Assembly: GCF_004010195.1 (NCBI RefSeq)
Contig: NC_057719.1
Location: 9,795,775-9,859,774 of the forward strand
Source of the DNA: Chiloscyllium plagiosum
Lineage: Eukaryota
Reading direction: 5' to 3'
DNA: 64,000 bases
Shown here piece after piece: positions 1,678 to 62,158 of this stretch. Position 1 is the stretch's first letter. Each line of letters opens with the position of its first letter. Position numbers and translations under genes: made by a program. The notes beneath the pieces are model-generated. The model saw only the letters and a list, made by a program, of their open reading frames with translations, was not told the origin of the DNA and did not search any database.

Positions 1678-1811
1678 CTCCTTCATCACCTGATGAAGGA
1701 GCGTCGCTCCGAAAGCTAGTGTGCTTCCAATTAAACCTGTTGGACTATAACCTGGTGTTGTGTGATTTTTAACTTTGTACACCCCAGTCCAACACCGGCA
1801 TCTCCGAATCA
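1678..1811 (+). mobile_element. Short Penelope-type terminal-repeat element (family A) with minimal hammerhead core
   Basis: CAC-CTGATGA-A-GGAGC-GTC-GCTCC-GAAA-GCTA-GTG at 1687-1721; near-identical copy at 5882-6005, diverged copy at 37355-37440. Confidence 0.75.
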
Positions 1812-2744: not shown

Positions 2745-4945
2745 TAAGGTCATAAGGCATCAGAATAGGAGAAGGCCATTTGGTCCCTCCAGTCTTCCCC
2801 ACCATTCAACAGGATCATGGTTGATCTGACATGCCTGACATCCACTTTCATGTCTTTTCCCCATAACCCTTGTTTCCCTAAGCAATCAAAAATGTCTCCC
2901 AGCCTTAAACATACACAAGGACACTGCCCTCACATCTCTCTGTGGCAAGGCTTTCCAAAGACTTTCAATCCTCAAAGAGAAGAAATTTCTCCTCATCTCA
3001 CTCTTAAATTGGCAATCCTGAATCCTGAGACTATGCCCTCTGATCCCAGAATCTCCCATAAAGGAACCATCCTCTCAACATTTAGCCTGTCAAGCCCCCT
3101 TAAGAATCCTACACAGTTCAATGATGTCACCTCTAATTCTTCTAAATTCCAAAGAGTCAAGTCCAACCTGTTTAACCTTTGCTCATAATTCCTTGAAAGT
3201 GAAGTCATAGGTAGACAGGATGGTGAAGGCTGCATTTGGTATGCTTTCCTTTACTGGTCAGTGCATTGAGTAAAGGAGCTGGGACGTTACATTGAGTTTG
3301 TACAGAACATTGGTTAGGCTTGTTTTGGAACACTACATTCAATTCTGGTGTTTAGGAAATATGTTGGGTTCAGAAAAAAATTGCAAGGATGTTCCCAAGG
3401 TTGAATAGTTTGAGCTGTAGGGAGAGGCTGAATAGGCTGGAGCTGTTTTCCCTGGAGCGCTGGAGATTGAGGGGTGACCTTATAGAGGTTTATAAAATCA
3501 TAGAACATAGAACAGTACAGCACAGAACAGGCCCTTCAGCCTACAATGTTGTGCCGACCACTGATCCTCATGTATGCACCCTCAAATTTCTGTGACCATA
3601 TGCACGTCCAGTAGTCTCTTAAATATCCCCAATGACCTCGCTTCCACAACTGCTGCTGGCAACACATTCTATGCTCTCACAACTCTCTGTGTAAAGAATC
3701 CGCTTATGACATCCCCTCTATACTTTCCTCCAATCAGCTTAAAACTATGACCCCTCGTGTTAGTCATTTCTGCCCTGGGAAATAGTCTCTGGCTATTGAC
3801 TCTATCTATGCCTCTCATTATCTTGTATACCTCAATTAGGTCCCCTCTTCTCCTCCTTTTCGCCAATGAAAAAAGTCCGAACTCAGTCAACCTCTCCTCA
3901 TAAGATAAGCCCTTCAGTCCAGGCAGCATCCTGGTAAACCTCCTCTGAACCCTCTCCAAAGCATCCACATCTTTCCTATAATAGGGCGACCAGAACTGGA
4001 CGCAGTATTCCAAGTGCGGTCTAACCAAAGTTTTATAGAGCTGCAACAAGATCTCACGACTCTTAACTCAATCCCCCTGTTAATGAAAGCCAAAACACCA
4101 TATGCTTTCTTAACAACCCTTGGGTGGCCATTTTAAGGGATCTATGTACCTGCACACCAAGATCCCTCTGTTCCTCCACACTGCCAAGAATCCTATCCTT
4201 AACCCTGTACTCAGCTTTCAAATTCGACCTTCCAAAATGCATCACCTCGCAAATATCCAGGTTGAACTCCATCTTCCACCTCTCAGCCCATCTCTGCATC
4301 CTGTCAATGTCCCGCTGCCGGTCAACGACACCTTCAACCTTTGTGTCATCTGCAAACTTGCTGACCCATCCTTCAATCCCCTCATCCAAGTCATTAATAA
4401 AAATTACAAACAGTAGAGGCCCAAGGACAGAGCCCTGTGGAACACCACTCACCACAGACTTCCAGGCAGAATATTTTCCTTCTACTACCACTCGCTGTCT
4501 TCTGTTGGCCAGCCAATTCTGTATCCAGGCAGCTAAGTTCCCCTGTATCCCATTCCTCCTGACCCTCCATGAGGGACATGGGGAGGGTAAATAGACAAGG
4601 TTTCTTCCCTGGGGTGGGGCAGTCCTGAACTTGAGGGCATTGGTTTAAGGTGAGAGAGGAAATACTTGAAAGGGACCTAAGGGGCAATATTTTCACACAG
4701 AGGGTGGTGCATGTATGAAATGAACTGCCAGAGGAGGTGGTGGAGGCTGGTACAATTACAACATTTAAAAGGCATCTGGATGGGTAAATGAATAGGAAGG
4801 GTTTAGAGGGATATGGGCCAAATGCTGGCAAATGGGCCAAATGCTGGCAAATGGGTCCAGTGCAATTTAGGTAGCTGGTCAGCATTCAGAGTTGGACTGA
4901 AGGGTCTGTTTCTATGCTGTACATCTCGATGGCTCTGACTCTAAT
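2745..4945. mobile_element. Nested CR1 LINEs: minus-strand RT-containing copy (~3500-4567) inserted in a plus-strand 3' fragment, with a further minus 3' end at 2745-3195
   Basis: ORFs 4063-4491 (SGVPQGSVLGPLLFVIFINDLD...SKFADDTK) and 3669-4049 (LYKTLVRPHLEYCVQFWSP...); catagaa tail at ~3500. Confidence 0.92.
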
Positions 4946-5399: not shown

Positions 5400-6090
5400 T
5401 GCAAGTGGAGTCACAGGTGGATAGGGTAGTGAAGAGGAATTTTGTCGCGCTTGCCTTTATTGGTTAGTGCAATGAGAATAGGAGTTGGGATCTCATGTTG
5501 CGGCTGCACATGACATTGGTGAGGACTATTGGAATACTGCTTCCAATTCTGGTCTCCCTGCTTTAGGAAGGATGTTGTGAAACTTGAAAGGGTTCAGATA
5601 AGACTTACAAGGATGTTGCCAGGGTTGGAGGATTTGAGCTAAAGGGAGAGGCTGATTAAGTTGGGGCTATTTTCTCTGGCATGTCGGGAGGCTGAGGGGT
5701 GACCTTATCGAGGTTTATAAAATCATGTGGGGCATGGATAGGGTAAGTAGACAAGGTATTTTACTTGGGATAAGGGAGTCCAGAACTAGAGGGCAAAGAT
5801 TTAGGGTGAGAGGGGAAAAATTTAAAAAGAATCTAAAGGCAACTTTTTCACGTACGGGGTGATGGCAAATGAGACTAGATTCACCTGATGAAGGAGCGTC
5901 GCTCTGAAAGCTAGTGTGCTTCCAATTAAACCTGTTGGACTATAACCTGGTGTTGTGTGATTTTTAACTTTGTACACCCCAGTCCAACACCGGAATCTCC
6001 GAATCGAGACTAGATTGGGTTAGGATATCTGGTCAGCATGGATGAGTTGGACCAATAGGTCTGTTTCAATGCTGTACATCTCCTTGCCTC
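5400..6090 (+). mobile_element. CR1 3' fragment carrying a family-A Penelope-type insertion (5882-6005)
   Basis: Insertion flanked by 11-bp direct repeat gagactagatt (5871-5881, 6006-6016). Confidence 0.85.
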
Positions 6091-14489: not shown

Positions 14490-14840
14490 AGGGGCAGCAT
14501 GGTGGCTCAGTGATTAGCACTGCTGCCTCACAGCACCAGGGACCTGGGCTTGATTCCAGCCTCAGGTGACTGTCTGTGTGGAGTTTGCATGATTCTCCCA
14601 GTGTCTGCATGGGTTTCCTCCTACAGTCCAAAGATCTGCACGTTAGGTGGATTGGCTATGCTAAATTGTCCCACAGTATCCAGGAGTGCGCAGGCTAGGT
14701 GGATTGGCCATGAGAACTGCAAAGTTACAGGGATAGGATAAAGGGACGGTTCTAGGTTGGTTGTTGTTCAGGCGGGGTAGGGGGGAATGATATGGACTTG
14801 ATGGGCTGAAGGGACTGTTTCCGCACTGTAGGGATTCTCA
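14490..14840 (+). mobile_element. HE1-type tRNA-derived SINE
   Basis: Head ggcagcatggtggctcagtgattagcactgctgcctcacagc; tail actgtagggattct shared with CR1 3' ends. Confidence 0.88.
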
Positions 14841-15487
14841 TAGAATCACAGAATCCACCCTTCCCACCCCCTGGGGGTCTGGACTACTAGCCAAGTGACA
14901 TTACCACAACAGCACGCTATGTCTCCATGAACAGATGCATTGCTCCATATTTAGCCTGTCCAGACCATACAATTTTGAATAGTTCAATCAATTCTCCTCT
15001 TAGCTTTCTCCCTCCCAAAACTTGAACGTCCAAATCTGTCTTCACAATTCCTCATTCCTGAATTTATTAATGTAAACTTCTTCTGCAATGCCTTCTTAAA
15101 GTCCTGAACTGTATAAAATACTCAGTTTGAGGTCAAATCCATGCGTTATATAAATTTAACATAACATTCTTGCTTCTGTACTCTATGCCCTTGTTAACAA
15201 AGCCTAAGGTGAGTGTCTGTTGGAGTTTGCATAATTCTACCCGTGTCTGCATGGGTTTCCTCCCACAGTCCAAAGATCTGCACGTTAGGTGGATTGGCTA
15301 TGCTAAATTGTCCCACAGTATCCAGGAGTGTGCAGGCTAGGTGGATTGGCTATGAGAACTGCAAAGTTACAGGGATAGGATAAAGGGATGGGTCTAGGTT
15401 GGTTGTTGTTCTTTTTATTTATTGTCCTCTCAAGGCATCTTGCTATTGTTAGTGACAAGTGCACGCATACATCCAGGACTCTCTGCA

Positions 15488-15900
15488 CTTAACATCCTCT
15501 TTAGAGTTGTAGCCTTTGCTTTCATGTTCTTTCTACCAAATGACATCACCTCACACTTTTAGAATTAGAATTAGAATCCCTACAGTGTGGAAACAGGTCC
15601 ATTGGCCCAACAAGTCCACACTGATCCTCCGAAGAGTAACCCACCCAAACCCGTTCCCTACCCTATATTTACCCCTGACTAATGTACCTAACCCTTAACA
15701 TCCTCTTTAGAGTTGTAGCCTTTGCTTTCATGTTTTTTCTACCAAATGACATCACCTCACACTTTTAGAATTAGAATTAGAATCCCAACAGTGTGGAAAC
15801 AGGTCCATTGGCCGAACAAGTCCACACTGATCCTCCGAAGAGTAACCCACCCAAACCCGTTCCCTACCCTATATTTACCCCTGACTAATGTACCTAACCT
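15488..15900 (+). repeat. ~206-bp near-perfect tandem duplication spanning a LINE/SINE junction; full minus-strand HE1 SINE continues to ~16117
   Basis: Units start cttaacatcctctttagag at 15488 and 15694; duplicated ORFs 15516 and 15722. Confidence 0.92.
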
Positions 15901-18059
15901 ACACATCCCTGAACACTATGGGCAATTGAGCATGGCCAATTCACCTGACCTGCACATCTTTGGGTTGTGGGAGGAAACCGGAGCACCCACAGGAAACCCA
16001 CACAGACACAGGGAGAACGTGCAAACTCCACACAGACAGTTGCCCCAGGCTGGAATTGAACCCAAGTACTGGGTGCTGTGAGGCAGCAGTGCTAACTACT
16101 GAGCTACCATACCACCCTTAGCAATGAACTTCATCTGCCACCAATCCATCACTCCACCATCTTGTCTCTGCCCATTCAAAGTACAAAACTTTCCTTCTCA
16201 CGTTGGTTTCATGTTTGGAACCATCTCTAAATGTTGACATTGTGCCCTGTACACCAAGGTCTAGGTCATTAATATAGATTAGGAAGGCCAAGGGTCCTAA
16301 CACTGATCCCTGGAAATGACACTACAAACCTTCCACCAGCCCAAAGAAACATTTTCTCTCAAATCTTCAAAACCAATTTCTGTTTCATGTCATAGTTTAT
16401 TCTATTGACTGTAAATAACTTTACAATAGAAGCACAGAAAATAGGCTTGGGAATAGGCCATTCAAGTCTGCCCCACTGTTCAATATGATCAAGGCTGACT
16501 GTGCAACTCAGTCCCCTGTTCCTGCTTTCTCTCCTCGCCTTTTGACCCTTTAGCCCTCAGAACTATATCTGACTCCTTGAAAACATTGAGTTTTTGGCCT
16601 CAACCACGTTCTGTGGCAGAGAATTCCACAGGCTCACCATTCTCAGGGTAAAGAAAGTTTTCCTTGACTTAGTCCTAATGACTTGCCCTGCATCCTTAAA
16701 CTGCAACCCTTGGTCCTGAACTACCTGGTCATCAGGAACATTTTCAAATATTCAGCCATATATAGTCCTGTTAGAATTTTATAGGTTTCTGTGAGATTCA
16801 AGGTCCGAGCAAGTAATGCTCATCTCTTTCCCATTTCACAATGCACTGTTAACGTGAAGCTGAGCAAGTCATCAGTTTCATTCAGAAAGACAGATCACTG
16901 CCACCCACTCAACAGCACTTGAGATGGACAATAAGTGTTACCAGTGATGCCCTAACTCCCATGAATGCACTAAAGAAAAGGAGAAAGAAAGGGAAATTGT
17001 ACCCATCAAGCCGATAACTTGGTGCAATCCAGCCAATCACTGTCTCCAGTCTGTCACATCTGTCCAAAAGGATCTGAAATTCCTCACTGTTCACTTCCAA
17101 AGGTAACATCATTATGCCCATCCATCTTTAAATCTGTGGCATGGCATGGCATGACATTTCCAGGGATGTAGCAGATATTTTAAACAAAGCACAGCAGCTG
17201 ATCATCAAACCACTGCAGATGAATTACAATGTCGGCACCTGTAAAGTGCTACATGTGGGAAGGGGAAGTAAATGTCCGATATATTAAAGCAACAACTTAC
17301 TTTTATATGATGCCTTAAATATAACCACATGTCTTGAGGTCCTTAAAACCTACTCCAAAAGTGAGAACTGCAGAGGCCAGAGATCAGAGTCGAGAGTGTG
17401 GTGCTGGAAAAACACAGCAGGTCAGACAGCATCCAAGGAGCAGGAGAATTGATGTTTCGGCCCTTCATCAAGAATGTAGGGGGGAGCTCAAGGGGACTGA
17501 GAGATGGAAGCCAATGGAAAGTTGAACAATAATCGCCAGAACTATTCAATGCAATTAAGCCAAACAAAGTTACCCTGAAAAAGTATGAACAGAGAATAGC
17601 TCTGTGTACTGTGCCCAGCTCTGGTCACCAGGGGAGGTATTTAACTATTCGAGAGACTGATAGTAATTGTCACAGTGCTCTACTTTGTGAAGAAACAGTC
17701 TGTGTCGTAAAGGAATACTGGTGGGTTACAGATTTCTCAACTCTGCAAGAAGTTATGTTAGATTGCAAACAGTATGCAAAAGGCAAATAACCTTAAACAA
17801 GGTAACAGTGGGAATATAGGGCACAGCTTTACTGCCGCTAAAAATATGGTTTTGGTTCCAAAAATCAGGAAATTCTTCAGGGAAAGCAAACATTCAGTAA
17901 TACTAGAGAGAAGCAAAGTCTTTGAAATCCTGTAAAAAAACAATGGGATGTTGCATGGAATGTTTAGGGACAAATCCTCAGATAGGTGTAAACTAGAATG
18001 AATCAAATTGCTTTCTTTATGCATAACAATCTTGTGATCTCAATCGGCATATCACCCTT

Positions 18060-28584: not shown

Positions 28585-29117
28585 TTAAAACCCCACCCCT
28601 CTCCCTAACCTGATTTAACCCCCGACCCCCTCTCCCTAACCTGATTAAAACCCCACCCCTCTCCCTAACCTGATTTAACCCCCGACCCCCTCTCCCTAAC
28701 CTGATTAAAACCCCACCCCTCTCCCTAACCTGATTTAACCCCCGACCCCCTCTCCCTAACCTGATTAAAACCCCACCCCTCTCCCTAACCTGATTTAACC
28801 CCCGACCCCCTCTCCCTAACCTGATTAAAACCCCACCCCTCTCCCTAACCTGATTTAACCCCCGACCCCCTCTCCCTAACCTGATTAAAACCCCACCCCT
28901 CTCCCTAACCTGATTTAACCCCCGACCCCCTCTCCCTAACCTGATTAAAACCCCACCCCTCTCCCTAACCTGATTTAACCCCCCCCTCACTAACCTATTA
29001 AACCCCCAACCCTCTCTCACTAACCTGATTAAAACCCCACCCTTTTCACTAACCTGATTAAACCCCTCCCTCACTAATCTGATTAAATCCCCCCACCTCT
29101 CTCACTAACCTGATTAA
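28585..29117. repeat. Minisatellite: two ~30-bp variants alternating as a perfect 60-bp higher-order repeat (~6.5 copies), then degenerate monomers
   Basis: Sequence lines 28621-28980 are identical: cccgaccccctctccctaacctgattaaaaccccacccctctccctaacctgatttaacc. Confidence 0.97.
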
Positions 29118-29649: not shown

Positions 29650-30347
29650 CAGAAAGTGAGGACTGCAGATGCTGGAGATCAGAGTCGAGAGTGTGGTGCT
29701 GGAAGAGCACAGCCGATCAGGCAGCATCTGAGCAGCAGGAGAATCGATGTTTCGGGCATAAGCCCTTCATCAGGGTGAATGAATCCTGATGAAGGACTTA
29801 TGCCCAAAACGTCGATTCTCTTGCTCCTTGGATGCTGCCTGGCCTGCTGTGATTTTCCAGCACCACACTCTCGACTCTGTTCAACAATACACTGATTTCC
29901 ATCTGTCCTCTGCTGCTCTTTCCTTCATGCACCAATCTCCAAGGCTGCAGTTGGCCAAATGGCCAGGTTGCACTGCCATCTTCGCCTCCACCCCTTTTTA
30001 TTTTTTTGGCTATGATAAACCCAGATCAAAGGGTGCCCCAACTACCTGCTATCTATCCTTGTGCAGTCCCTTTGATGCTACCCTCACTGCCAACAGCCAG
30101 CCCGTGCCAGTGTGTTCTTGCACTGTCAGACCCAAGGATCAGCTCATAATGAAGTTGGAAACTGGAGTCCATGGCAACACGACGCCTGGAGGAAGTGCGA
30201 CTCATCTTCCGCCTAGGAACCCTCCAACCACAAGGGATGAATGCAGATTTCTCCAGGCTCCTTGGATGCTGCCTGACCTGCTGCGCTTTTTCCAGCAACA
30301 CATTTTTCAGCTCTGATCTCCAGCATCTGCAGTCCTCTCTTTCTCCT
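29650..30347. mobile_element. Family-B fold-back element (29650-29878) and adjacent Penelope 3' ORF fragment (~29940-30347)
   Basis: ~100-bp inverted arms around 29774-29784; peptide ATRRLEEVRLIFRLGTLQPQGMNADFS typical of the C-terminus of the Penelope GIY-YIG domain. Confidence 0.85.
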
Positions 30348-41431: not shown

Positions 41432-41654
41432 GTCGAGGGTGTGTGGTGCTGGAAAAGCACAGCAGATCAGGCAGCATCCAAGAAGCAGGAAAATTGACGT
41501 TTCAGGCAGGAGTCCTTCAAGGAATTCCTGATGAAGGGCTCCTGCCTGAAAAATTGATTCTCCTGCTCCTCGGATACTGCCTGACCTGCTATGCTTTTCT
41601 AGCACCACACACTCTTGAATCTGATCTCCAGTATATGCAATCCTCACTTCCTCC
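41432..41654. mobile_element. Fold-back family-B element
   Basis: Inverted arms around ggaattcc; flanking direct repeat ctgacaa(c/t)aaactcag. Confidence 0.85.
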
Positions 41655-44189: not shown

Positions 44190-45315
44190 TAGAGTAGATG
44201 TACCACTCAGATGTACAGCATGGAAACAGACCCTTCGGTCCAACCCGTCCATGCCGACCAGATATCCCAACCCAATCTAGTCCCACCTGCCGGCACCCGG
44301 CCCATATCCCTCCAAACCCTTCCTATTCATATACCCATCCAAATGCCTCTTAAAATTGTACCAGCCTCCACCACTTCCTCTGGCAGCTCATTCCATACAC
44401 GTACCACCCTCTGTGTGAAAACGTTGCCCCTTAGGCCCCTTTTATATCTTTCCCCTCTCACCATAAACCTATGCCCTCTAGTTCTGGACTCCCCGACCCC
44501 AGGGAAAAGACTTTGNNNNNNNNNNNNNNNNNNNNNNNNNNNNNNNNNNNNNNNNNNNNNNNNNNNNNNNNNNNNNNNNNNNNNNNNNNNNNNNNNNNNN
44601 NNNNNNNNNNNNNNNNNNNNNNNNNNNNNNNNNNNNNNNNNNNNNNNNNNNNNNNNNNNNNNNNNNNNNNNNNNNNNNNNNNNNNNNNNNNNNNNNNNNN
44701 NNNNNNNNNNNNNNNNNNNNNNNNNNNNNNNNNNNNNNNNNNNNNNNNNNNNNNNNNNNNNNNNNNNNNNNNNNNNNNNNNNNNNNNNNNNNNNNNNNNN
44801 NNNNNNNNNNNNNNNNNNNNNNNNNNNNNNNNNNNNNNNNNNNNNNNNNNNNNNNNNNNNNNNNNNNNNNNNNNNNNNNNNNNNNNNNNNNNNNNNNNNN
44901 NNNNNNNNNNNNNNNNNNNNNNNNNNNNNNNNNNNNNNNNNNNNNNNNNNNNNNNNNNNNNNNNNNNNNNNNNNNNNNNNNNNNNNNNNNNNNNNNNNNN
45001 NNNNNNNNNNNNNNNNNNNNNNNNNNNNNNNNNNNNNNNNNNNNNNNNNNNNNNNNNNNNNNNNNNNNNNNNNNNNNNNNNNNNNNNNNNNNNNNNNNNN
45101 NNNCCTGTATTCCATGAGATCTAACCTTGCTAAACAGTCTCCCATGGGGAACCTTGTCGAACGCCTTACTGAAATCCATATAGATCACATCTACTGCTCT
45201 GCCCTCAATCTTCTTTGTTACTTCATCAAAAAACTCAATCAAGTTTGTGAGACATGATTTCCCACGCACAAAGCCATGCTGACTATCCCGAATCAGTCCT
45301 TGCCTTTCCAACACA
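44190..45315 (-). mobile_element. CR1/HER1 LINE spanning an assembly gap (N run 44516-45103)
   Basis: LERQGLIRDSQHGFVRGKSCLTNLIEFF...YMDFSKAFDKVPH on one side of the gap, 3' end on the other. Confidence 0.92.
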
Positions 45316-46795: not shown

Positions 46796-47443
46796 TGTGA
46801 CAAGGTGGCACGGTGGCACAGTGGTTAGCACTGCTGCCTCACAGCGCCAGAGACCCGGGTTCANNNNNNNNNNNNNNNNNNNNNNNNNNNNNNNNNNNNN
46901 NNNNNNNNNNNNNNNNNNNNNNNNNNNNNNNNNNNNNNNNNNNNNNNNNNNNNNNNNNNNNNNNNNNNNAGGGCCTGTTTCCACACTGTAAGTAATCTAA
47001 TCTAATCTAAGGTCAGCCAGGTAGACATCATAGAATATGAGTTCCCTGATTGGGGCTGTTAATCTGGTCCAATCAGAGAGCCCCGGTTGACAGATAAAAA
47101 CAGGAGTGTCAATTGAATAAAGATTTGTATACCTTGTGTCTTTCACTGTGTCTCACACTTGCACACACACACACAACATGGGTGCTGGGGATAAAGTAAG
47201 CACTACTGCAGTTAGGCAATAGTGTGGAGGTGAGAGAGAAAAAAGATAAACAGGAGGGTCAGACCTCCTGTTCGCTCCGAGAGTTGATTCTTGAAGGAGC
47301 TGGACCCCAAAAAAAACAATAGTGTCAAGACATCCTGTCACTCAGAGCTGGCTGTGAGGTAGCTGGATCACTGTCAATTACTATGCACGTGTAAATAAAT
47401 GGTGACTTAGTGATGGGATACAGGCCTCTATAGAGTTATTTCA
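46796..47443 (+). mobile_element. Solo LTR (tg...ca) related to the Gypsy LTR at ~6090-6960, with an HE1 SINE (~46805-47010, gap 46864-46969) and an internal insert
   Basis: tgtgacaaggt|SINE|aaggtcagccagg...aataaatggtgacttagtgatgg...gagttatttca. Confidence 0.7.
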
Positions 47444-56330: not shown

Positions 56331-58145
56331 ATAGAGTTAAGGAGCATCCAAAGGGATTTTCCAAATACATTAAAGACAAAAGGGTAACTAGGGAGAGAAT
56401 AGAGCCCTGAAAGATCAGCAGGGCCACCTATGTGTGGAACCGCAGGAGATGGGGGAAATACTGAGTGAGTATTTTCCATCAGTGCTAACTGTGGAGAAGG
56501 ATATGGAAGATAGAGAATGTGGCGAAATAAATAGCGACATCATAAAAAAAAAGTTAATATTACAGAGGATGTGGTGCTGCCTGTCTTAAAACACATAAAT
56601 GTGGATAAATCCCCAGGACCTGATCAGGTATACCCTAGAACTCTGTGCAAAGCTAGGGAAGTGATTGCTGGGCCCCTTGCTAAGGATATTTTAATCATCG
56701 ATAGCCACGGGTAGGTGCCGGAAGACTGGAAGCTGGCTAACATGGTGCACTATTTAAGAAAGGTGGTAAGGACAAGCCAAGGAACTATAGACCGGTTAGC
56801 CTGGCATTGGTGGTGGGCAAATTCTTGGAGCGAATCCTGAGGGACAGGACTTACACATATTTGGAAAGGTAAGGACTGATTAGGGTTAGTCATCATAGCT
56901 TTGTGCATGAGAAACCGTGTCTCATTAACTTGATTGAGTGTTTGAAGTAACTAAGAGGATTGATGAGATCAGAGTGCTGGGTGTGATCTATATGGACTTC
57001 AGTAAGGGTTTGACAAGGTTCCCCATGGGAGACAGGTTAGCAAGGTTAGATCTCATGGAATACAGGGAGAACTAGCCATTTGGATACAGAGTTGGCTCAA
57101 AGGTAAAAGACAGAGGGTGATGGTGGACGGTTGCTTTTAAGACCGGAGGCATGCAATTAGCCTTGTGCCACAAGGATCAGTGCTAGGTCCACTATTTTTC
57201 GTCATTCATATAAATGCTTTGGATGTGAATACGGGAGGTACAGTTAGTAAGTTTGAAGAAGACACCAAAATTGGAGGTGTAGTGGGCAAGCAAAGAAGGT
57301 CATCTCAGATTACAACAGGATCTTGATCAGATGAGTCAATAGGCTGAGGAATAGCAGATAGAGTCTAATTTAGATAAATGTCAGGTGCTGCATTTTGGGA
57401 AAGCAAATCAGGGCAGGACCTATACACTTAATGGTAACGTCCTGGGGAGTGTTGCTGAACAAAGAGACCTTGGAGTGCAGGTTCATAGTTCCTTGAAAAA
57501 GTGAAGTCGCAGATAGATAAAATAGTGAAGAAGGCATTTGGTATGTTTTCCTTTATTGGTCAGTGCATTGAGTAGAGGAGCTGGAAGATCATGTTCTGGC
57601 TGTACAGGACATTGGTTAGGAAAATACTGAACACTGCATGCAATTCTGGTTGCCCTGCTATAGGAAGGTTGTTGTGAAACTTGAAAGAGTTCAGAAAAGA
57701 CTTACAAGGATGTTGCCAGGGTTGGAGGATTTGAGCTCCAGGGTGAGGCTGAATAGGCTGGGGCTATTTTGTCTGGAGCATCAGAGACCTTACAGAGGTT
57801 TTTAAAATCATGAGGGACATGAATAGGGTAAATAGACAAGGTCTTTACCCTGGGGCTGGGGAGTCCAAACCTCGAGGACATAGGATTAGGGTGAGAGGGG
57901 AAAGATTGAAAAGTGACCTAAGGGGCAACTTTTTCACACTGAGGGTGCTGTGTGTATGGAATGAGCTGCCAGACGAAGTGGTGGAGGATGGTACAATTAC
58001 AACATTTAAAAGGCATCCAGGCGGGAAAATGAAGAGGAAGGATTTAGAGGGATATGGACCAAATTCTGGCAAATGGAACTAGATTCCAATATCTGGTTGG
58101 CGTGGATCGAAGGATCTGTTTCTGTGCTGTACATCACTGTAAATC
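56331..58145 (+). mobile_element. 1.8-kb decayed CR1/HER1 LINE covering most of the RT domain
   Basis: gataaatccccaggacctgatc (DKSPGPD), ggaactatagaccggttagcc (NYRPVS), gacttcagtaagg.tttgacaagg, and 3' end. Confidence 0.92.
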
Positions 58146-58599: not shown

Positions 58600-59160
58600 A
58601 AGGGTGTGGAGTGACCTGATAGAAATTTATGACAAGATTACAAAATTTACAAAAACTTACAAAATTATGAGAGGCATAAACAGGATAGATCATCGGAGTC
58701 TTTTCTCCAGGGTAGAAACATCAATTACCAGGGGGCATAGGTTTAAGGTCAAAGTGGGTAAGTCGAAAGGAGATGTGAGAGACAGGCCTTTTACACAGAG
58801 GGTGGTAAGTGTCTCGAATGCTCTGCATGGAGGAGGTAGATACAATAGCAACATGTAAGAGGTATCTTCTTCACTATCCTATCTATCTGCGACTTCACTT
58901 TCAAGGAACTACGAACCTGCACTCCAAGGTCTCTTTGTTCAGCAACACTCCACAGGACCTTACCATTAAGTGTACAGGTCCTGCCCTGATTTGCTTTCCC
59001 AAAATGGGAGGTATCTCAACAGATAGATAAATAGTCTACGGACTAGAGATACGGACAGCATAGAGGGGAAAGGCTTTTAGTTTGGAAAGGCATTGTGTGT
59101 CAGCACTGTCTTATGGGCCAAATGGCCTGTGCCCTTGCTATTCTTTGCTCTTTTGTTCTT
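58600..59160. mobile_element. CR1 3' fragment containing an inverted CR1 piece (~58868-59007)
   Basis: Insert flanked by gaggtatct on both sides; insert resembles 11065-11195. Confidence 0.7.
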
Positions 59161-59647
59161 AATACAGCTGGAACCCCTGCTTAGTCCCAGCTAATGAAAG
59201 GAGACGGCCTCTCATTAGAATCACCATTCATGATTCCATTCCAGATATTTATGAATTGAATGTAAATTACACCAGCTGCCTGGGGTAGGATCTGAATCAC
59301 TATCCCTCAAGCATTCACCAAGGCCTCTCAGTTCGTAGTCCAGTGGTACTATACCACCATCTTCCCCATTCTGATGCTGGCCTGCTAATTCTCCCATGGG
59401 CTAAAAACCTCCCCTTGGATCGTGAGCATATCCACTAATTGGTCAATTCATCTGAAATCGCATTGAGAGGCAGCAAGGTGTAAAAATGAACATTTTCAAT
59501 TTCCAAATGAAGGTGACTTCTTTTCTTTTCTCTCCTGTACCAAGCTTCCAAGCTCCCTTGAGCCACTATGCAAACACAACAGGTAAGTGACATTCCTTCC
59601 ACCAATGCAAAACTGGCTAGAAAGAGGGCTCTTGTACTGCACTGGTA

Positions 59648-59937
59648 GTGTCCCTCACTCATTTTGTGCTGTCCACTTTATTGCTCGCTAAACTTCTTGC
59701 ACACCAGTGATCATGCCCTTCTCTCCTGATGTGATGTTGCTGACACATCCAACATTTATTGTCCATCCTCGACTTCCCTTGAGAAGGTGGTGATGAGCTG
59801 CCTTTTTGAACCACTGCAGTCCATGTGGTGTACATACACACTGTGAGGAGGGTGTTCCAGAACTTTAACCCAGTGAAGAAACAGTGGTATTTTTCCAAAT
59901 CATGGTGGTGTGAGAGTTGGGAGTGGGAACTTGCAAG
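59648..59937 (-). repeat. Left arm of a ~290-bp inverted duplication (partner 61868-62158)
   Basis: Reverse complement aligns to 61868-62158 with about 11 differences by eye. Confidence 0.95.
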
Positions 59938-60881
59938 GAGGTGCATGTTCAAATGCCACCTGTTCCAGAGGTTTGTCATATACACCTCTGAACAGGTTGA
60001 TTCAGGAATATCTACAAAACATGCCAAGACAAATAGCATGAAGATCAGGGCATGGAAATTCACTCTGACCTCTCTCAGAGGTAATGCCAGACTGTTCCTC
60101 ATTCATGTGGCTGAGATCATGAAAGGAGAGCGGGAGGTCAAACTTACACCCTGTCAGGCCATACTCCTTCCACCTTGTAAATCCTTCAGGCAAATAACTG
60201 ATGTGCTTTTACTTTGTCACAGTAAACAGGCACAAAACAAAAGGCAAGCCAGGAAATCGCTTCCCAAAATCCAGGGATGGGGATGGAAGGGGAAGAATTA
60301 ACTCTTTCAGAAGTTGCAAAGGTTAACAAACATCTTTCAGCAGTGATAATTAGAAGTCTTCATCCACAGACAGCAACATACATTTAGATTCCTGTGCATT
60401 TACATTGCTGTTCTTTCCTAATATTTCATTTGACATCCCTCATTCTCTTTTTGCAAGTTTTACTGATTTGCACATCCGCCTGCTTATTTGAAAACCACTC
60501 ACCGGTAAATAACATGCAAGGAAGTAATTTAATCTAGCCCACTCAATCATAATCACTATTGGCTGTGTGCAAATTGTGTAGAACATCATCTCGTAACTGA
60601 TGCACAGTATTACTTCATGTCAAACCTACTACCGATTATAATTCATGTTTCTTCCAGTACATATCTTATGAAAAGAGTAGAACAATGAGAATGCATGATC
60701 AATATCACGGTATCCTCTTTTATCAAGTAAAATAAATCTCATCATTATCATATTATAATACACAATATTTAATTTCTAAATGTTGTTTTTGGGATGGCTA
60801 CAATGTATACAAAGGTGAAGGTTCACCCAAGGCGTTGAATGCTATTCCACCAGCCCTGTTAGGAAGGTAAACCACACTTAC

Positions 60882-61265
60882 CTCTTTCACATGTTCTCCC
60901 CCAGTAGCCCATGCCTGTGCAATCACAGATGAACCGGTTCCAGCCTTCCCTGCACACTGCATTGTTCTTGCAAGGGTTGCTGTCACATTGCTTCGTGCTC
61001 AGGCGTAAGCAAGATGGCTTGACCCCAGCCGCGTTCTGTTCCTCAGCCAACTGCCGGATATCTTTGCTCCTCCCATCAATGAACAAGTCCCTGATGCAGC
61101 CAACATAGCCATAGTTGAGCATGGCTGTCCACAGCTCTGTGGGCAAGATGGACCCCATTCTGTTGTCTGGTAGGCCTCCAAGGTACATGTCCCCCTCCAG
61201 GTCAAGAATCTCACTGTCTCCACTTGCTGTGAATGGGGTACGTCGACTATTCACAGATATCGTGC
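60882..61265 (-). CDS. NRXN3: Internal coding exon of alpha-neurexin-3 (C-terminal part of LNS3 domain plus EGF-like repeat 2), 384 nt, phase 1-1
   Basis: Translates (G)[32 protein letters not shown]...[26 protein letters not shown]...[35 protein letters not shown]. Acceptor ttttctctcgcag|GC at 61265, donor AGAG|gtaagt at 60882. [18 protein letters not shown] and KNNAVC fit NRXN3 better than NRXN1/2 as I recall them. Confidence 0.95.
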
Positions 61266-61454
61266 CTGCGAGAGAAAATCAAATGTTTGTAAAATGTTGG
61301 TCCAACTTTTACTAAGTGCCAGAAACATGTAAAAGACTACATTTCTGATTCAATATCACCAAAATATTTGCATTGGCTTCCTCCAGTAACTCAGTGCTAA
61401 TCTTATGAGAAGTTCTTTAACAGCACTTTGACAATGCAATCTCTTTGATTTCTT

Positions 61455-61815
61455 TACATGTTCATTCCTGGGATAAGGGCGTCGCTGACTGAGCCAGCAT
61501 TTATTGCCCATTCCTAATTGACCAGAGGACAGTTAGGAGTCAACCACATTGCTGTGGGTCTGGAGTCACACGTGGCCAGGCCAGGTCAGGTAAGGATGGC
61601 AGATTTTTCCCCTAAAGGACATTAGTGAACCAGATGGGTTTTTCCAAGAATCGACAATGGATTCATGATTATCATCAGACTCTTAAACACAGATTTTTAT
61701 TGAATTCAAATTCCACTATCTGTTATGGCGGGATTTGGACCAGAGTACCAGAACATTATGTGGGTCTATGGATTAACAGTCCAGTGATAATATCACTAAG
61801 GCCATCACCTTCCCC
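61455..61815 (+). repeat. Unclassified interspersed repeat (gccagcatttattgccca...gagtcaaccacattgctgtgggtctggagtcac)
   Basis: Related copies at ~2640, 21410+27571, 36250 and 46320. Confidence 0.75.
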
Positions 61816-61867
61816 AGGTCTCTACCAGCTGGAAGGACAAGGGTGCAGGAACATGGGTATACCATCG

Positions 61868-62158
61868 CTTGCAAGTTCCCACTCCCAACTCTCACACCAC
61901 CATGATTTGGAAAAATACGACTGTTTCTTCACTGGGTTAAAGTTCTGGAACACCCTCCTCACAGTGTGTATGCACACCTCATGGACTGCAGTGGTTCAAA
62001 AAGGCAGCTCATCACCACCTTCTCAAGGGAAGTCGAGGATGGGCAATAAATGTTGGATGTGTCAGCAACACTCACATCAGGAGAGAAGGGCATGATCTCT
62101 GGTGTGCAGGAAGCTTAGCGAGCAATAAACAGGACAGCACAAAATGAGTGAGGAACAC
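61868..62158 (+). repeat. Right arm of the inverted duplication flanking the NRXN3 exon
   Basis: Same peptide LASSHSQLSHHHDLEKY.CFFTGLKFWNTLL appears in ORFs 61625(+) and 59659(-). Confidence 0.95.

What the first reader, a model, noticed from the sequence alone, without database searches (positions are those of the whole stretch)
59648..62158. Local ~290-bp inverted duplication brackets the symmetric NRXN3 exon: back-splicing / exon-skipping configuration
Seen: 59648-59937 and 61868-62158 are reverse complements with about 11 differences (~95%), lying ~945 nt and ~600 nt either side of the only exon. The shared block appears to run ~85 nt past the end of the repeat family into flank and shares private variants, so it looks like a local duplication rather than two independent insertions. 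Known: reverse-complementary intronic matches flanking exons promote circRNA formation, exon skipping and ADAR editing. Inference: the pre-mRNA can fold into a long stem that loops out this exon; skipping would keep frame (384 nt, phase 1-1) and remove half of LNS3 plus EGF2, outside the canonical neurexin splice sites.
Basis: partly seen in the sequence, partly recalled or inferred. Interest (0 to 1): 0.78.

Follow-up and report, generated by a model that had tools for sequence, protein, structure and literature searches.

The report
Inverted repair copy around neurexin exon
In a bamboo shark, about 280 bases of one intron of the synapse gene neurexin-3 were copied backwards into the next intron, likely during DNA repair, so the RNA is predicted to fold around one exon, but such copies are common in this genome and the only informative RNA data show normal splicing, so it is most likely a harmless old scar.

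Summary
The inverted repeat is real: 59648-59937 matches 61868-62158 at 96.2%, around a 384-nt, phase 1-1 neurexin-3 exon (60882-61265, minus strand). It is a local, one-way copy. Arm B is native: it runs on into its parent repeat and unique flank. Arm A was pasted into an old short repeat, replacing about 13 nt, with microhomology at both joints and no target-site duplication. DNA contigs bridge arm A's joints in this organism and in a close relative, so it is no misassembly and predates their split. Both arms have since mutated independently. It fits the known 'Inverted Dup' class (under 1 kb, inserted within 5 kb; PMC4617611). Three of 120 control tiles hold comparable pairs, which suggests thousands per genome and about 1 in 1,000 exons of this size bracketed. 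Function is unshown. One RNA contig shows normal splicing into the exon, and 25 of 25 Chiloscyllium isoform models keep it. Back-splicing, skipping and editing could not be tested at useful depth. The scan noted the same arrangement at bbs4 and RPRD2 in this genome. Verdict: likely a neutral repair scar that predicts, at most, a by-product circle.

The parts
59626..59655 (+). Left piece of an old ~110-nt short interspersed repeat (SINE-like by tRNA-type A/B-box-like motifs; label recalled, Rfam gave no match) that was split by the insertion
   Evidence: 12 of 19 intact genomic copies match this 30-mer at >=17/30, 13 nt (10 copies) or 11 nt (2 copies) upstream of the right piece; control 0 of 19; copies shown; Rfam
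59648..59655 (+). Left junction microhomology: 7 of 8 nt shared by host and donor (3 nt perfect at the joint)
59656..59937 (+). Arm A: 282-nt inverted templated copy of arm B, replacing about 13 nt of the host repeat; 2 nt perfect (4 of 5) microhomology at the right joint; no target-site duplication
   Evidence: joints bridged by DNA contigs of organisms A and B
59938..60022 (+). Right piece of the split host repeat
   Evidence: 40 scored genomic matches, 39 outside the window at 81-92%
60882..61265 (-). Neurexin-3 coding exon, 384 nt, phase 1-1, C-terminal part of LNS3 plus EGF2; same strand as the other exons found; upstream intron 7,931 nt, downstream intron about 143 kb; a single-exon circle would have no stop codon in the coding frame
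61446..61817 (.). High-copy interspersed repeat between the exon and arm B (ends approximate)
   Evidence: (summed depth 1e4-1e6)
61803..62078 (+). Remnant of an old interspersed repeat (about 73-78% to family copies) of which arm B is part; it runs about 65 nt past the inner end of the duplicated block
   Evidence: family matches extend to 61803 on the B side but stop at 59933-59943 on the A side
61868..62158 (+). Arm B: native donor segment = about 210 nt of the old repeat plus about 80 nt of unique flank

Best explanation
A 282-nt stretch of the intron upstream of a neurexin-3 exon was copied once, in reverse, into an old short repeat in the downstream intron, likely by template switching at microhomologies during repair of a break or stalled fork, and the resulting pair is likely a neutral scar that is only predicted to fold the pre-mRNA around the exon. 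Shown: the direction of copying (B to A), loss of about 13 nt of host, microhomology at both joints, no target-site duplication, unchanged exon orientation, presence in two species, independent decay of both arms, and the commonness of such pairs. Inferred: a broken end in the host repeat annealed by 3-8 nt to the opposite strand 2.5 kb away, was extended about 280 nt, and rejoined the far side of the break by 2-5 nt of homology (MMBIR/FoSTeS or polymerase-theta type; the enzyme cannot be told). Predicted, untested: the arms pair co-transcriptionally because they are the nearest and most identical cross-exon match, which may yield a low-level single-exon circle and some A-to-I editing as by-products while most transcripts include the exon.
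For: Host repeat split by arm A, with a 13-nt gap in intact copies. Donor continues into its parent repeat and unique flank. Junction microhomology and no TSD. All 13 NRXN3 matches on C10 are on the minus strand. DNA contigs run across the left joint in 4 of 4 runs (two clear bridges in organism A; 35 and 27 nt into the block in organism B) and across the right joint (49 nt into the arm in both B runs; 30 nt, one short of the tool's bridging rule, in both A runs). Arm-arm divergence 9/282 = 3.2% (95% CI 1.5-6.1) vs 2.6% between the two organisms over 1,621 nt of this intron. Of 5 differences that family copies can polarise, 2 arose in A and 3 in B, none compensatory. 3 of 120 control tiles hold local inverted copies >=280 nt at >=96%; two of them were checked genome-wide and have the same old-repeat-plus-flank anatomy. 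The size and distance fit 'Inverted Dup' in PMC4617611. Normal splice in the one informative RNA run. 25 of 25 Chiloscyllium isoform models keep the exon.
Against: The neutrality part rests on weak tests. Five polarised changes cannot exclude mild selection, and collapsed contigs prevent a clean arm-by-arm comparison between species. The RNA test was nearly blind: 3 of 4 runs had no depth on the exon, and the one contig (depth 8) did not reach the donor end. Per exon the arrangement is uncommon (about 0.1%; 0 of 18 other neurexin exon tiles). It has been retained across a species split, and 30-40-nt repeats can suffice for circularisation in minigenes (PMC4201285). Differences cluster weakly at the outer end (6 of 10 in the first 80 nt, one-sided post-hoc P=0.036), which could mean partial gene conversion or selection on the inner stem.
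Confidence: 0.72

Rival explanations
1. Same origin, but the stem has been co-opted: it drives abundant or regulated back-splicing or in-frame skipping of the LNS3-EGF2 exon in neurons, giving a circle with an endless reading frame or a shortened neurexin-3 alpha.
For: Nearest and most identical cross-exon inverted match, with no comparable competitor for either arm inside its own intron as far as searched. Predicted duplex -558.5 kcal/mol. Symmetric 384-nt exon with no stop in the circle frame and a long downstream intron. Kept in two species. Inverted intronic repeats promote circles (PMC4201285, PMC5042038).
Against: The only RNA junction seen is the normal one. 0 of 258 neurexin proteins with both neighbour exons lack this exon, including 86 of 86 newly found through the upstream exon. 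No sign of compensatory change. Stronger hairpins do not always circularise. Most mammalian circles tied to young repeats are argued to be by-products (PMC8516420 abstract).
Confidence: 0.12
2. RNA-templated origin: a transcript carrying the repeat's end plus about 80 nt of flank was reverse-transcribed into the break (3' transduction or RNA-patched repair).
For: Arm B consists of what looks like the tail of a repeat plus adjacent flank (which end is the tail is my reading of the sequence). A minority of templated insertions are RNA-derived (PMC4617611).
Against: No target-site duplication and no poly(A) or tandem tail; the host lost about 13 nt. The donor repeat was already about 25% diverged from its family. 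The copy landed 2.5 kb from the donor, which retrotransposition does not favour (established knowledge).
Confidence: 0.07
3. Two independently inserted old repeat copies were later homogenised by gene conversion or by recurrent inversion between them.
For: Part of the block is repeat-derived, and the inner 200 nt is more identical than the outer 80 nt (P=0.036).
Against: The block includes about 80-89 nt found only at these two places. Arm A has sharp joints inside an unrelated repeat with no parent-repeat sequence beyond them.
Confidence: 0.04
4. The arms are breakpoint duplications of a staggered-break inversion of the 1.9-kb segment.
For: Inverted duplicates flanking a segment are the recalled signature of such inversions.
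Against: The exon keeps the orientation of the other NRXN3 exons and is spliced normally. The two halves of the host repeat flank arm A in their original order and orientation.
Confidence: 0.02
5. Assembly artefact.
For: None beyond the general risk at inverted repeats. Reads of two runs carry one extra base in arm A that the assembly lacks.
Against: Separate contigs anchor each arm to its own flank in organism A, and arm A is bridged in organism B from two studies. The arms differ at 11 places.
Confidence: 0.01

Closest known systems
'Inverted Dup' structural variants of the 1000 Genomes phase 3 set (Sudmant et al. 2015, PMC4617611; passages seen)
   Same: Duplicated stretch under 1 kb inserted in inverted orientation within 5 kb of the other copy, not typically linked to retrotransposition; local templates and microhomology are described there for complex deletions.
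   Different: Here the event is old, present in two shark species and 3-4% diverged, rather than a human polymorphism; it happens to bracket a coding exon.
Microhomology-mediated templated insertions, MMB-TI / MMBIR (Osia et al. 2021, PMC8421209; passages seen) and polymerase-theta templated insertions (PMC7165422; search listing only)
   Same: Inverted copy of a nearby template, small deletion at the target, microhomology at the joints, germline occurrence.
   Different: The MMB-TI search was defined for templates within 100 bp and insertions up to a read length. This copy is 282 nt from a template about 2 kb away, so it is longer and farther. The enzyme cannot be assigned.
Reverse-complementary intronic matches that drive exon circularisation (Liang and Wilusz 2014, PMC4201285, passages; review PMC5042038, passages; Wang and Wang 2015, PMC4338345, abstract)
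   Same: Inverted repeats in the two introns flanking a longish single exon with canonical splice sites.
   Different: The pair is a repair-made copy that includes unique sequence, not two transposon insertions such as Alu. No back-splice product has been observed here.
Canonical neurexin-3 alternative splice sites SS1, SS3, SS4, SS5 (review PMC10363586; passages seen)
   Same: Same gene; an in-frame change to the ectodomain would result.
   Different: This 128-codon exon is not skipped in any isoform model examined. That the canonical sites are short inserts elsewhere is partly recalled.

Membership tests
Inverted Dup / local templated insertion | Copy under 1 kb, inverted, within 5 kb of its template | tested here: met
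   282-290 nt, 1,930 nt between arms
Inverted Dup / local templated insertion | Identifiable donor and interrupted target | tested here: met
   Arm B continues into its parent repeat and flank; arm A splits a host repeat
Inverted Dup / local templated insertion | Microhomology at the joints, small target deletion, no TSD | tested here: met
   7/8 nt left, 2 nt (4/5) right, about 13 nt lost, no direct repeat >=4 nt within 10 nt of the joints; the original host letters are inferred from family copies
Inverted Dup / local templated insertion | Empty (pre-insertion) allele in a population or outgroup | tested here: inconclusive
   All 4 DNA runs laid carry arm A; no more distant species was listed among DNA holders
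MMB-TI (as defined in PMC8421209) | Template within 100 bp of the insertion | tested here: not met
   Template about 2 kb away; works like it but is outside that operational definition
Polymerase-theta or MMBIR product | Genetic dependence on the enzyme or pathway | not testable with these tools
   Ancient germline event
RCM-driven circRNA locus | Reverse-complementary match in both flanking introns | tested here: met
RCM-driven circRNA locus | Back-splice junction in RNA, RNase R resistant | tested here: inconclusive
   None among 9 listed joints, but only 1 of 4 runs covered the exon, at depth 8 and not to the donor end; the tool drops human-like reads
RCM-driven circRNA locus | Circle depends on pairing of the arms | not testable with these tools
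   Needs a minigene or a species without arm A
Structure-driven cassette exon | Skip junction or skipped isoform | tested here: inconclusive
   0 of 258 proteins with both neighbour exons skip it and 25 of 25 Chiloscyllium models keep it, but these are annotation models and partly selected; the RNA loose-end table was cut
ADAR-edited intronic duplex | A-to-G changes in RNA over the arms | tested here: inconclusive
Staggered-break inversion | Segment between the duplicates is inverted | tested here: not met
   Exon on the same strand as the other exons; host halves collinear
Retrotransposon 3' transduction | TSD and poly(A) or tandem tail | tested here: not met

The most novel reading that the evidence does not exclude
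Repair-made local inverted copies, which number in the thousands in this shark genome, are a transposon-independent source of near-perfect exon-bracketing stems; at neurexin-3 one of them created, shortly before two bamboo-shark species split, an abundant neuronal single-exon circle whose 384-nt stop-free frame could be translated round and round into repeats of half-LNS3 plus EGF2, or an in-frame skip outside the known neurexin splice sites.
Probability: 0.08. Interest if true: 0.6.

Novelty: new member of a known kind. Interest (0 to 1): 0.2.

Why it matters
As it stands, it is a clean fossil of template-switch repair with donor, target, joints and relative age readable from sequence, and an ordinary member of a class that is frequent in this genome. 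It would matter more if brain RNA showed a circle or skip that depends on the copy. That would be a dated natural experiment on how one DNA-repair accident creates a new RNA isoform of a major synaptic gene, and the many similar pairs would make the general question (do repair scars seed circRNAs?) directly testable.

Tried and rejected
No RNA holder on record was listed for the stretch; this is no evidence either way. Runs X15, X16 and X21 gave no depth on the exon; the tool drops human-like reads, only about 2 in 100 of X21 was read, and its tissue is unknown, so this says nothing. T>C rows fall in high-copy repeats and probably come from other loci; they were not read as editing. An apparent 7-nt deletion shared by both arms in run X13 suggested gene conversion; rejected as evidence because collapsed contigs may be popped bubbles and X9 shows it in one low-depth contig only. 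Rfam gave no meaningful match for the host repeat or the arms (7 loci). Open frames in the parent-repeat loci were short and were not followed up, so the family is unnamed. The shark liver circRNA paper PMC7759564 (passages) does not mention neurexin; its held supplement is 294 characters, so its list of 4,558 circles could not be checked and may bear on the claim. Supplements of PMC8701796 and PMC8516420 gave no NRXN3 rows, so whether the orthologous mammalian exon circularises is open. A search for a species divergence date (listing only) was not used; no age in years is given. Searches found no paper on this locus by title or abstract start; (inverted duplication + circRNA + template switch + intron + back-splicing) returned 0 papers in the held library. 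No structure or complex prediction was run, as it would not bear on the question.

Full report
Observation. Self-comparison of the window finds 59648-59937 as the reverse complement of 61868-62158 at 96.2% over 291 columns, 10 mismatches and one 1-nt gap. Between them lies a minus-strand exon, 60882-61265, 384 nt, with canonical AG and GT edges and phase 1 at both ends, 944 and 602 nt from the arms. Its peptide is 100% identical to neurexin 3a of Chiloscyllium plagiosum and C. punctatum. It aligns to the second of three LNS-EGF units of neurexin-1 alpha, which is LNS3-EGF2 by the recalled domain order. All 13 matches of a full-length isoform on this contig are on the minus strand, so the exon is not inverted. 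The upstream intron is 7,931 nt and the downstream one about 143 kb. Joining the neighbours directly keeps the frame.

Local copy, not two insertions. A genome search with arm A lists 38 other copies at 73-78%, none starting before arm position 81 (40 of 3151 candidates scored). The outer 89 nt finds only the two arms (2 of 2 candidates). Mean identity to 18 family copies is 0.18-0.45 over the first 90 nt and 0.57-0.86 after.

Direction and joints. On the B side, family matches run past the block to 61803; on the A side they stop at the block's edge. The sequence right of arm A belongs to a different short repeat. In 12 of 19 intact copies of that repeat, the 30 nt left of arm A reappear 13 nt (10 copies) or 11 nt (2 copies) upstream of the right piece; the control gave 0 of 19. 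So arm A sits inside the host repeat and replaced about 13 nt. Host and donor share 7 of 8 nt at the left joint and 2 nt (4 of 5, using family copies for the lost letters) at the right; no target-site duplication was found. The label SINE for the host is recalled from A/B-box-like motifs; Rfam gave nothing useful. This is the signature of a templated insertion by template switching at microhomology. The enzyme is not identifiable.

Reality and age. Four DNA runs were laid on a stretch with arm A and the exon. In organism A (X1, X5), contigs bridge the left joint, reach 30 nt into the arm from the right flank, and separate contigs carry the arm B version and run on into other sequence. In organism B (X9, X13; two studies), contigs run from the left flank 27 and 35 nt into the block and from the right flank 49 nt into it. 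The repeat is therefore no misassembly and predates the A/B split. Organisms A and B differ at 42-43 of 1,621 nt here (2.6%); the arms differ at 9 of 282 nt (3.2%, 95% CI 1.5-6.1), so the copy is about as old as, or modestly older than, the split. Of five differences that family copies can polarise, two arose in A and three in B, none compensatory. Organism B has an arm-A-specific change at 59919, and lacks the organism A letter at 59676. This looks like ordinary decay, though the test is weak. Differences cluster mildly at the outer end (P=0.036, post hoc).

Base rate. In 120 ten-kb tiles that I placed at round coordinates on the large contigs (1,153,252 non-N bases), 5 tiles hold inverted pairs of at least 250 nt at 95% or more. 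Three of them (L068, L087, L192) are local copies with no close match in the other tiles; one is a young-repeat pair and one is intermediate. Six tiles hold local inverted pairs of at least 100 nt at 90% or more, 5.2 per Mb (CI 1.9-11.3). Genome searches confirm that L192 and L087 are unique pairs at 98% made of an old repeat piece plus flank, as here (40 candidates scored in each). Three in 1.15 Mb extrapolates to roughly 9,000 per genome (CI about 1,900-27,000). The chance that a 384-nt exon falls inside one is about 0.1%, and 0 of 18 other neurexin exon tiles are bracketed. The arrangement is thus uncommon per exon but expected many times per genome. The scan has already noted it at bbs4 and RPRD2 (AI notes, not checked by me).

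RNA. The arms are predicted to form a duplex of -558.5 kcal/mol. They are the nearest and most identical of the 12 best cross-exon inverted matches; a 1.1-kb, 89% repeat pair scores higher but lies tens of kb apart. A single-exon circle would have no stop in the coding frame. Four RNA or likely-RNA runs were laid on the exon, arm B and the upstream exon. Only X18 covered the exon: one contig at depth 8 joins the upstream exon to it across the 7,931-nt intron. None of the 9 listed joints is a back-splice, but the contig does not reach the donor end, contigs drop rare forms, human-like reads are filtered, and the loose-end table was cut. Back-splicing, skipping and editing are therefore untested. 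Among 264 proteins held, 258 have both neighbour exons and none lacks this exon. The first 120 were selected by the exon itself, but 86 of 86 found newly through the upstream exon and 25 of 25 full-length Chiloscyllium models also keep it (only 15 of 76 and 14 of 14 members of the two main clusters were listed; one 243-aa fragment was left out).

Comparison with what is known. PMC4617611 (passages) reports that 54% of sequenced human inversions were inverted duplications, nearly all under 1 kb and inserted within 5 kb of the other copy, and not typically linked to retrotransposition; this locus fits. PMC8421209 (passages) describes inverted templated insertions with microhomology as germline variants, but defines them for templates within 100 bp, which this case exceeds. 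PMC4201285 (passages) shows 30-40-nt inverted repeats can suffice for circularisation, and that stronger hairpins sometimes inhibit it. PMC5042038 (passages) notes competition among repeats and that single-exon circles favour long exons. PMC8516420 (abstract) argues that many circles are by-products tied to young repeats. PMC7759564 (passages) shows that this genus makes circRNAs in liver but does not mention neurexin; its list was not available. Searches surfaced no paper on this locus.

Verdict. Observation confirmed; origin well explained as a repair-type inverted copy of a known class; function unshown and most likely none beyond a possible by-product circle. Interest 0.2. The boldest reading not excluded, an abundant arm-dependent circle or skip of neurexin-3 as one case of repair scars seeding circRNAs, has probability about 0.08 and would merit 0.6.

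Noticed in passing
window 57391-57533 and 58866-59006: Another close inverted pair, 143 nt at 94%, 1.3 kb apart; repeat-derived, so it may be two young copies rather than a local duplication.
   Followed up: no
window 1686-1810 / 5881-6005; 14558-14769 / 15201-15411; 15488-15908: Local direct copies at 98% and 95%, and a near-tandem duplication at 97%.
   Followed up: no
window 28585-29117: Tandem array with a 60-nt (29+31) period, C-rich, with several exact copies.
   Followed up: no
window 29677-29882 and 41433-41618: Self-palindromic repeat copies of about 190-200 nt at 83-84%.
   Followed up: no
L046:1-3009 (a downstream NRXN3 intron): Direct duplication of at least 1,344 nt at 96.7%, running off the tile edge.
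   Followed up: no
L041 upstream intron vs window 3499-4567: A 1.1-kb, 89% inverted repeat pair also brackets the exon from far away, so cross-exon pairing partners exist without the local copy.
   Followed up: partly
window 59701: Contigs of runs X1 and X5 carry one extra C in arm A that the assembly lacks; an allele or a small assembly error.
   Followed up: no
L068:5095-7162, L087:4809-5964, L192:6784-8457, L150:3106-4022, L170:8-690: Local inverted copies of 208-786 nt at 93-98% with spacers of 0.2-1.1 kb in control tiles; the class seems abundant in this genome and could be catalogued.
   Followed up: partly
window 44516-45103 and 46864-46969: Runs of N (588 and 106 nt).
   Followed up: no
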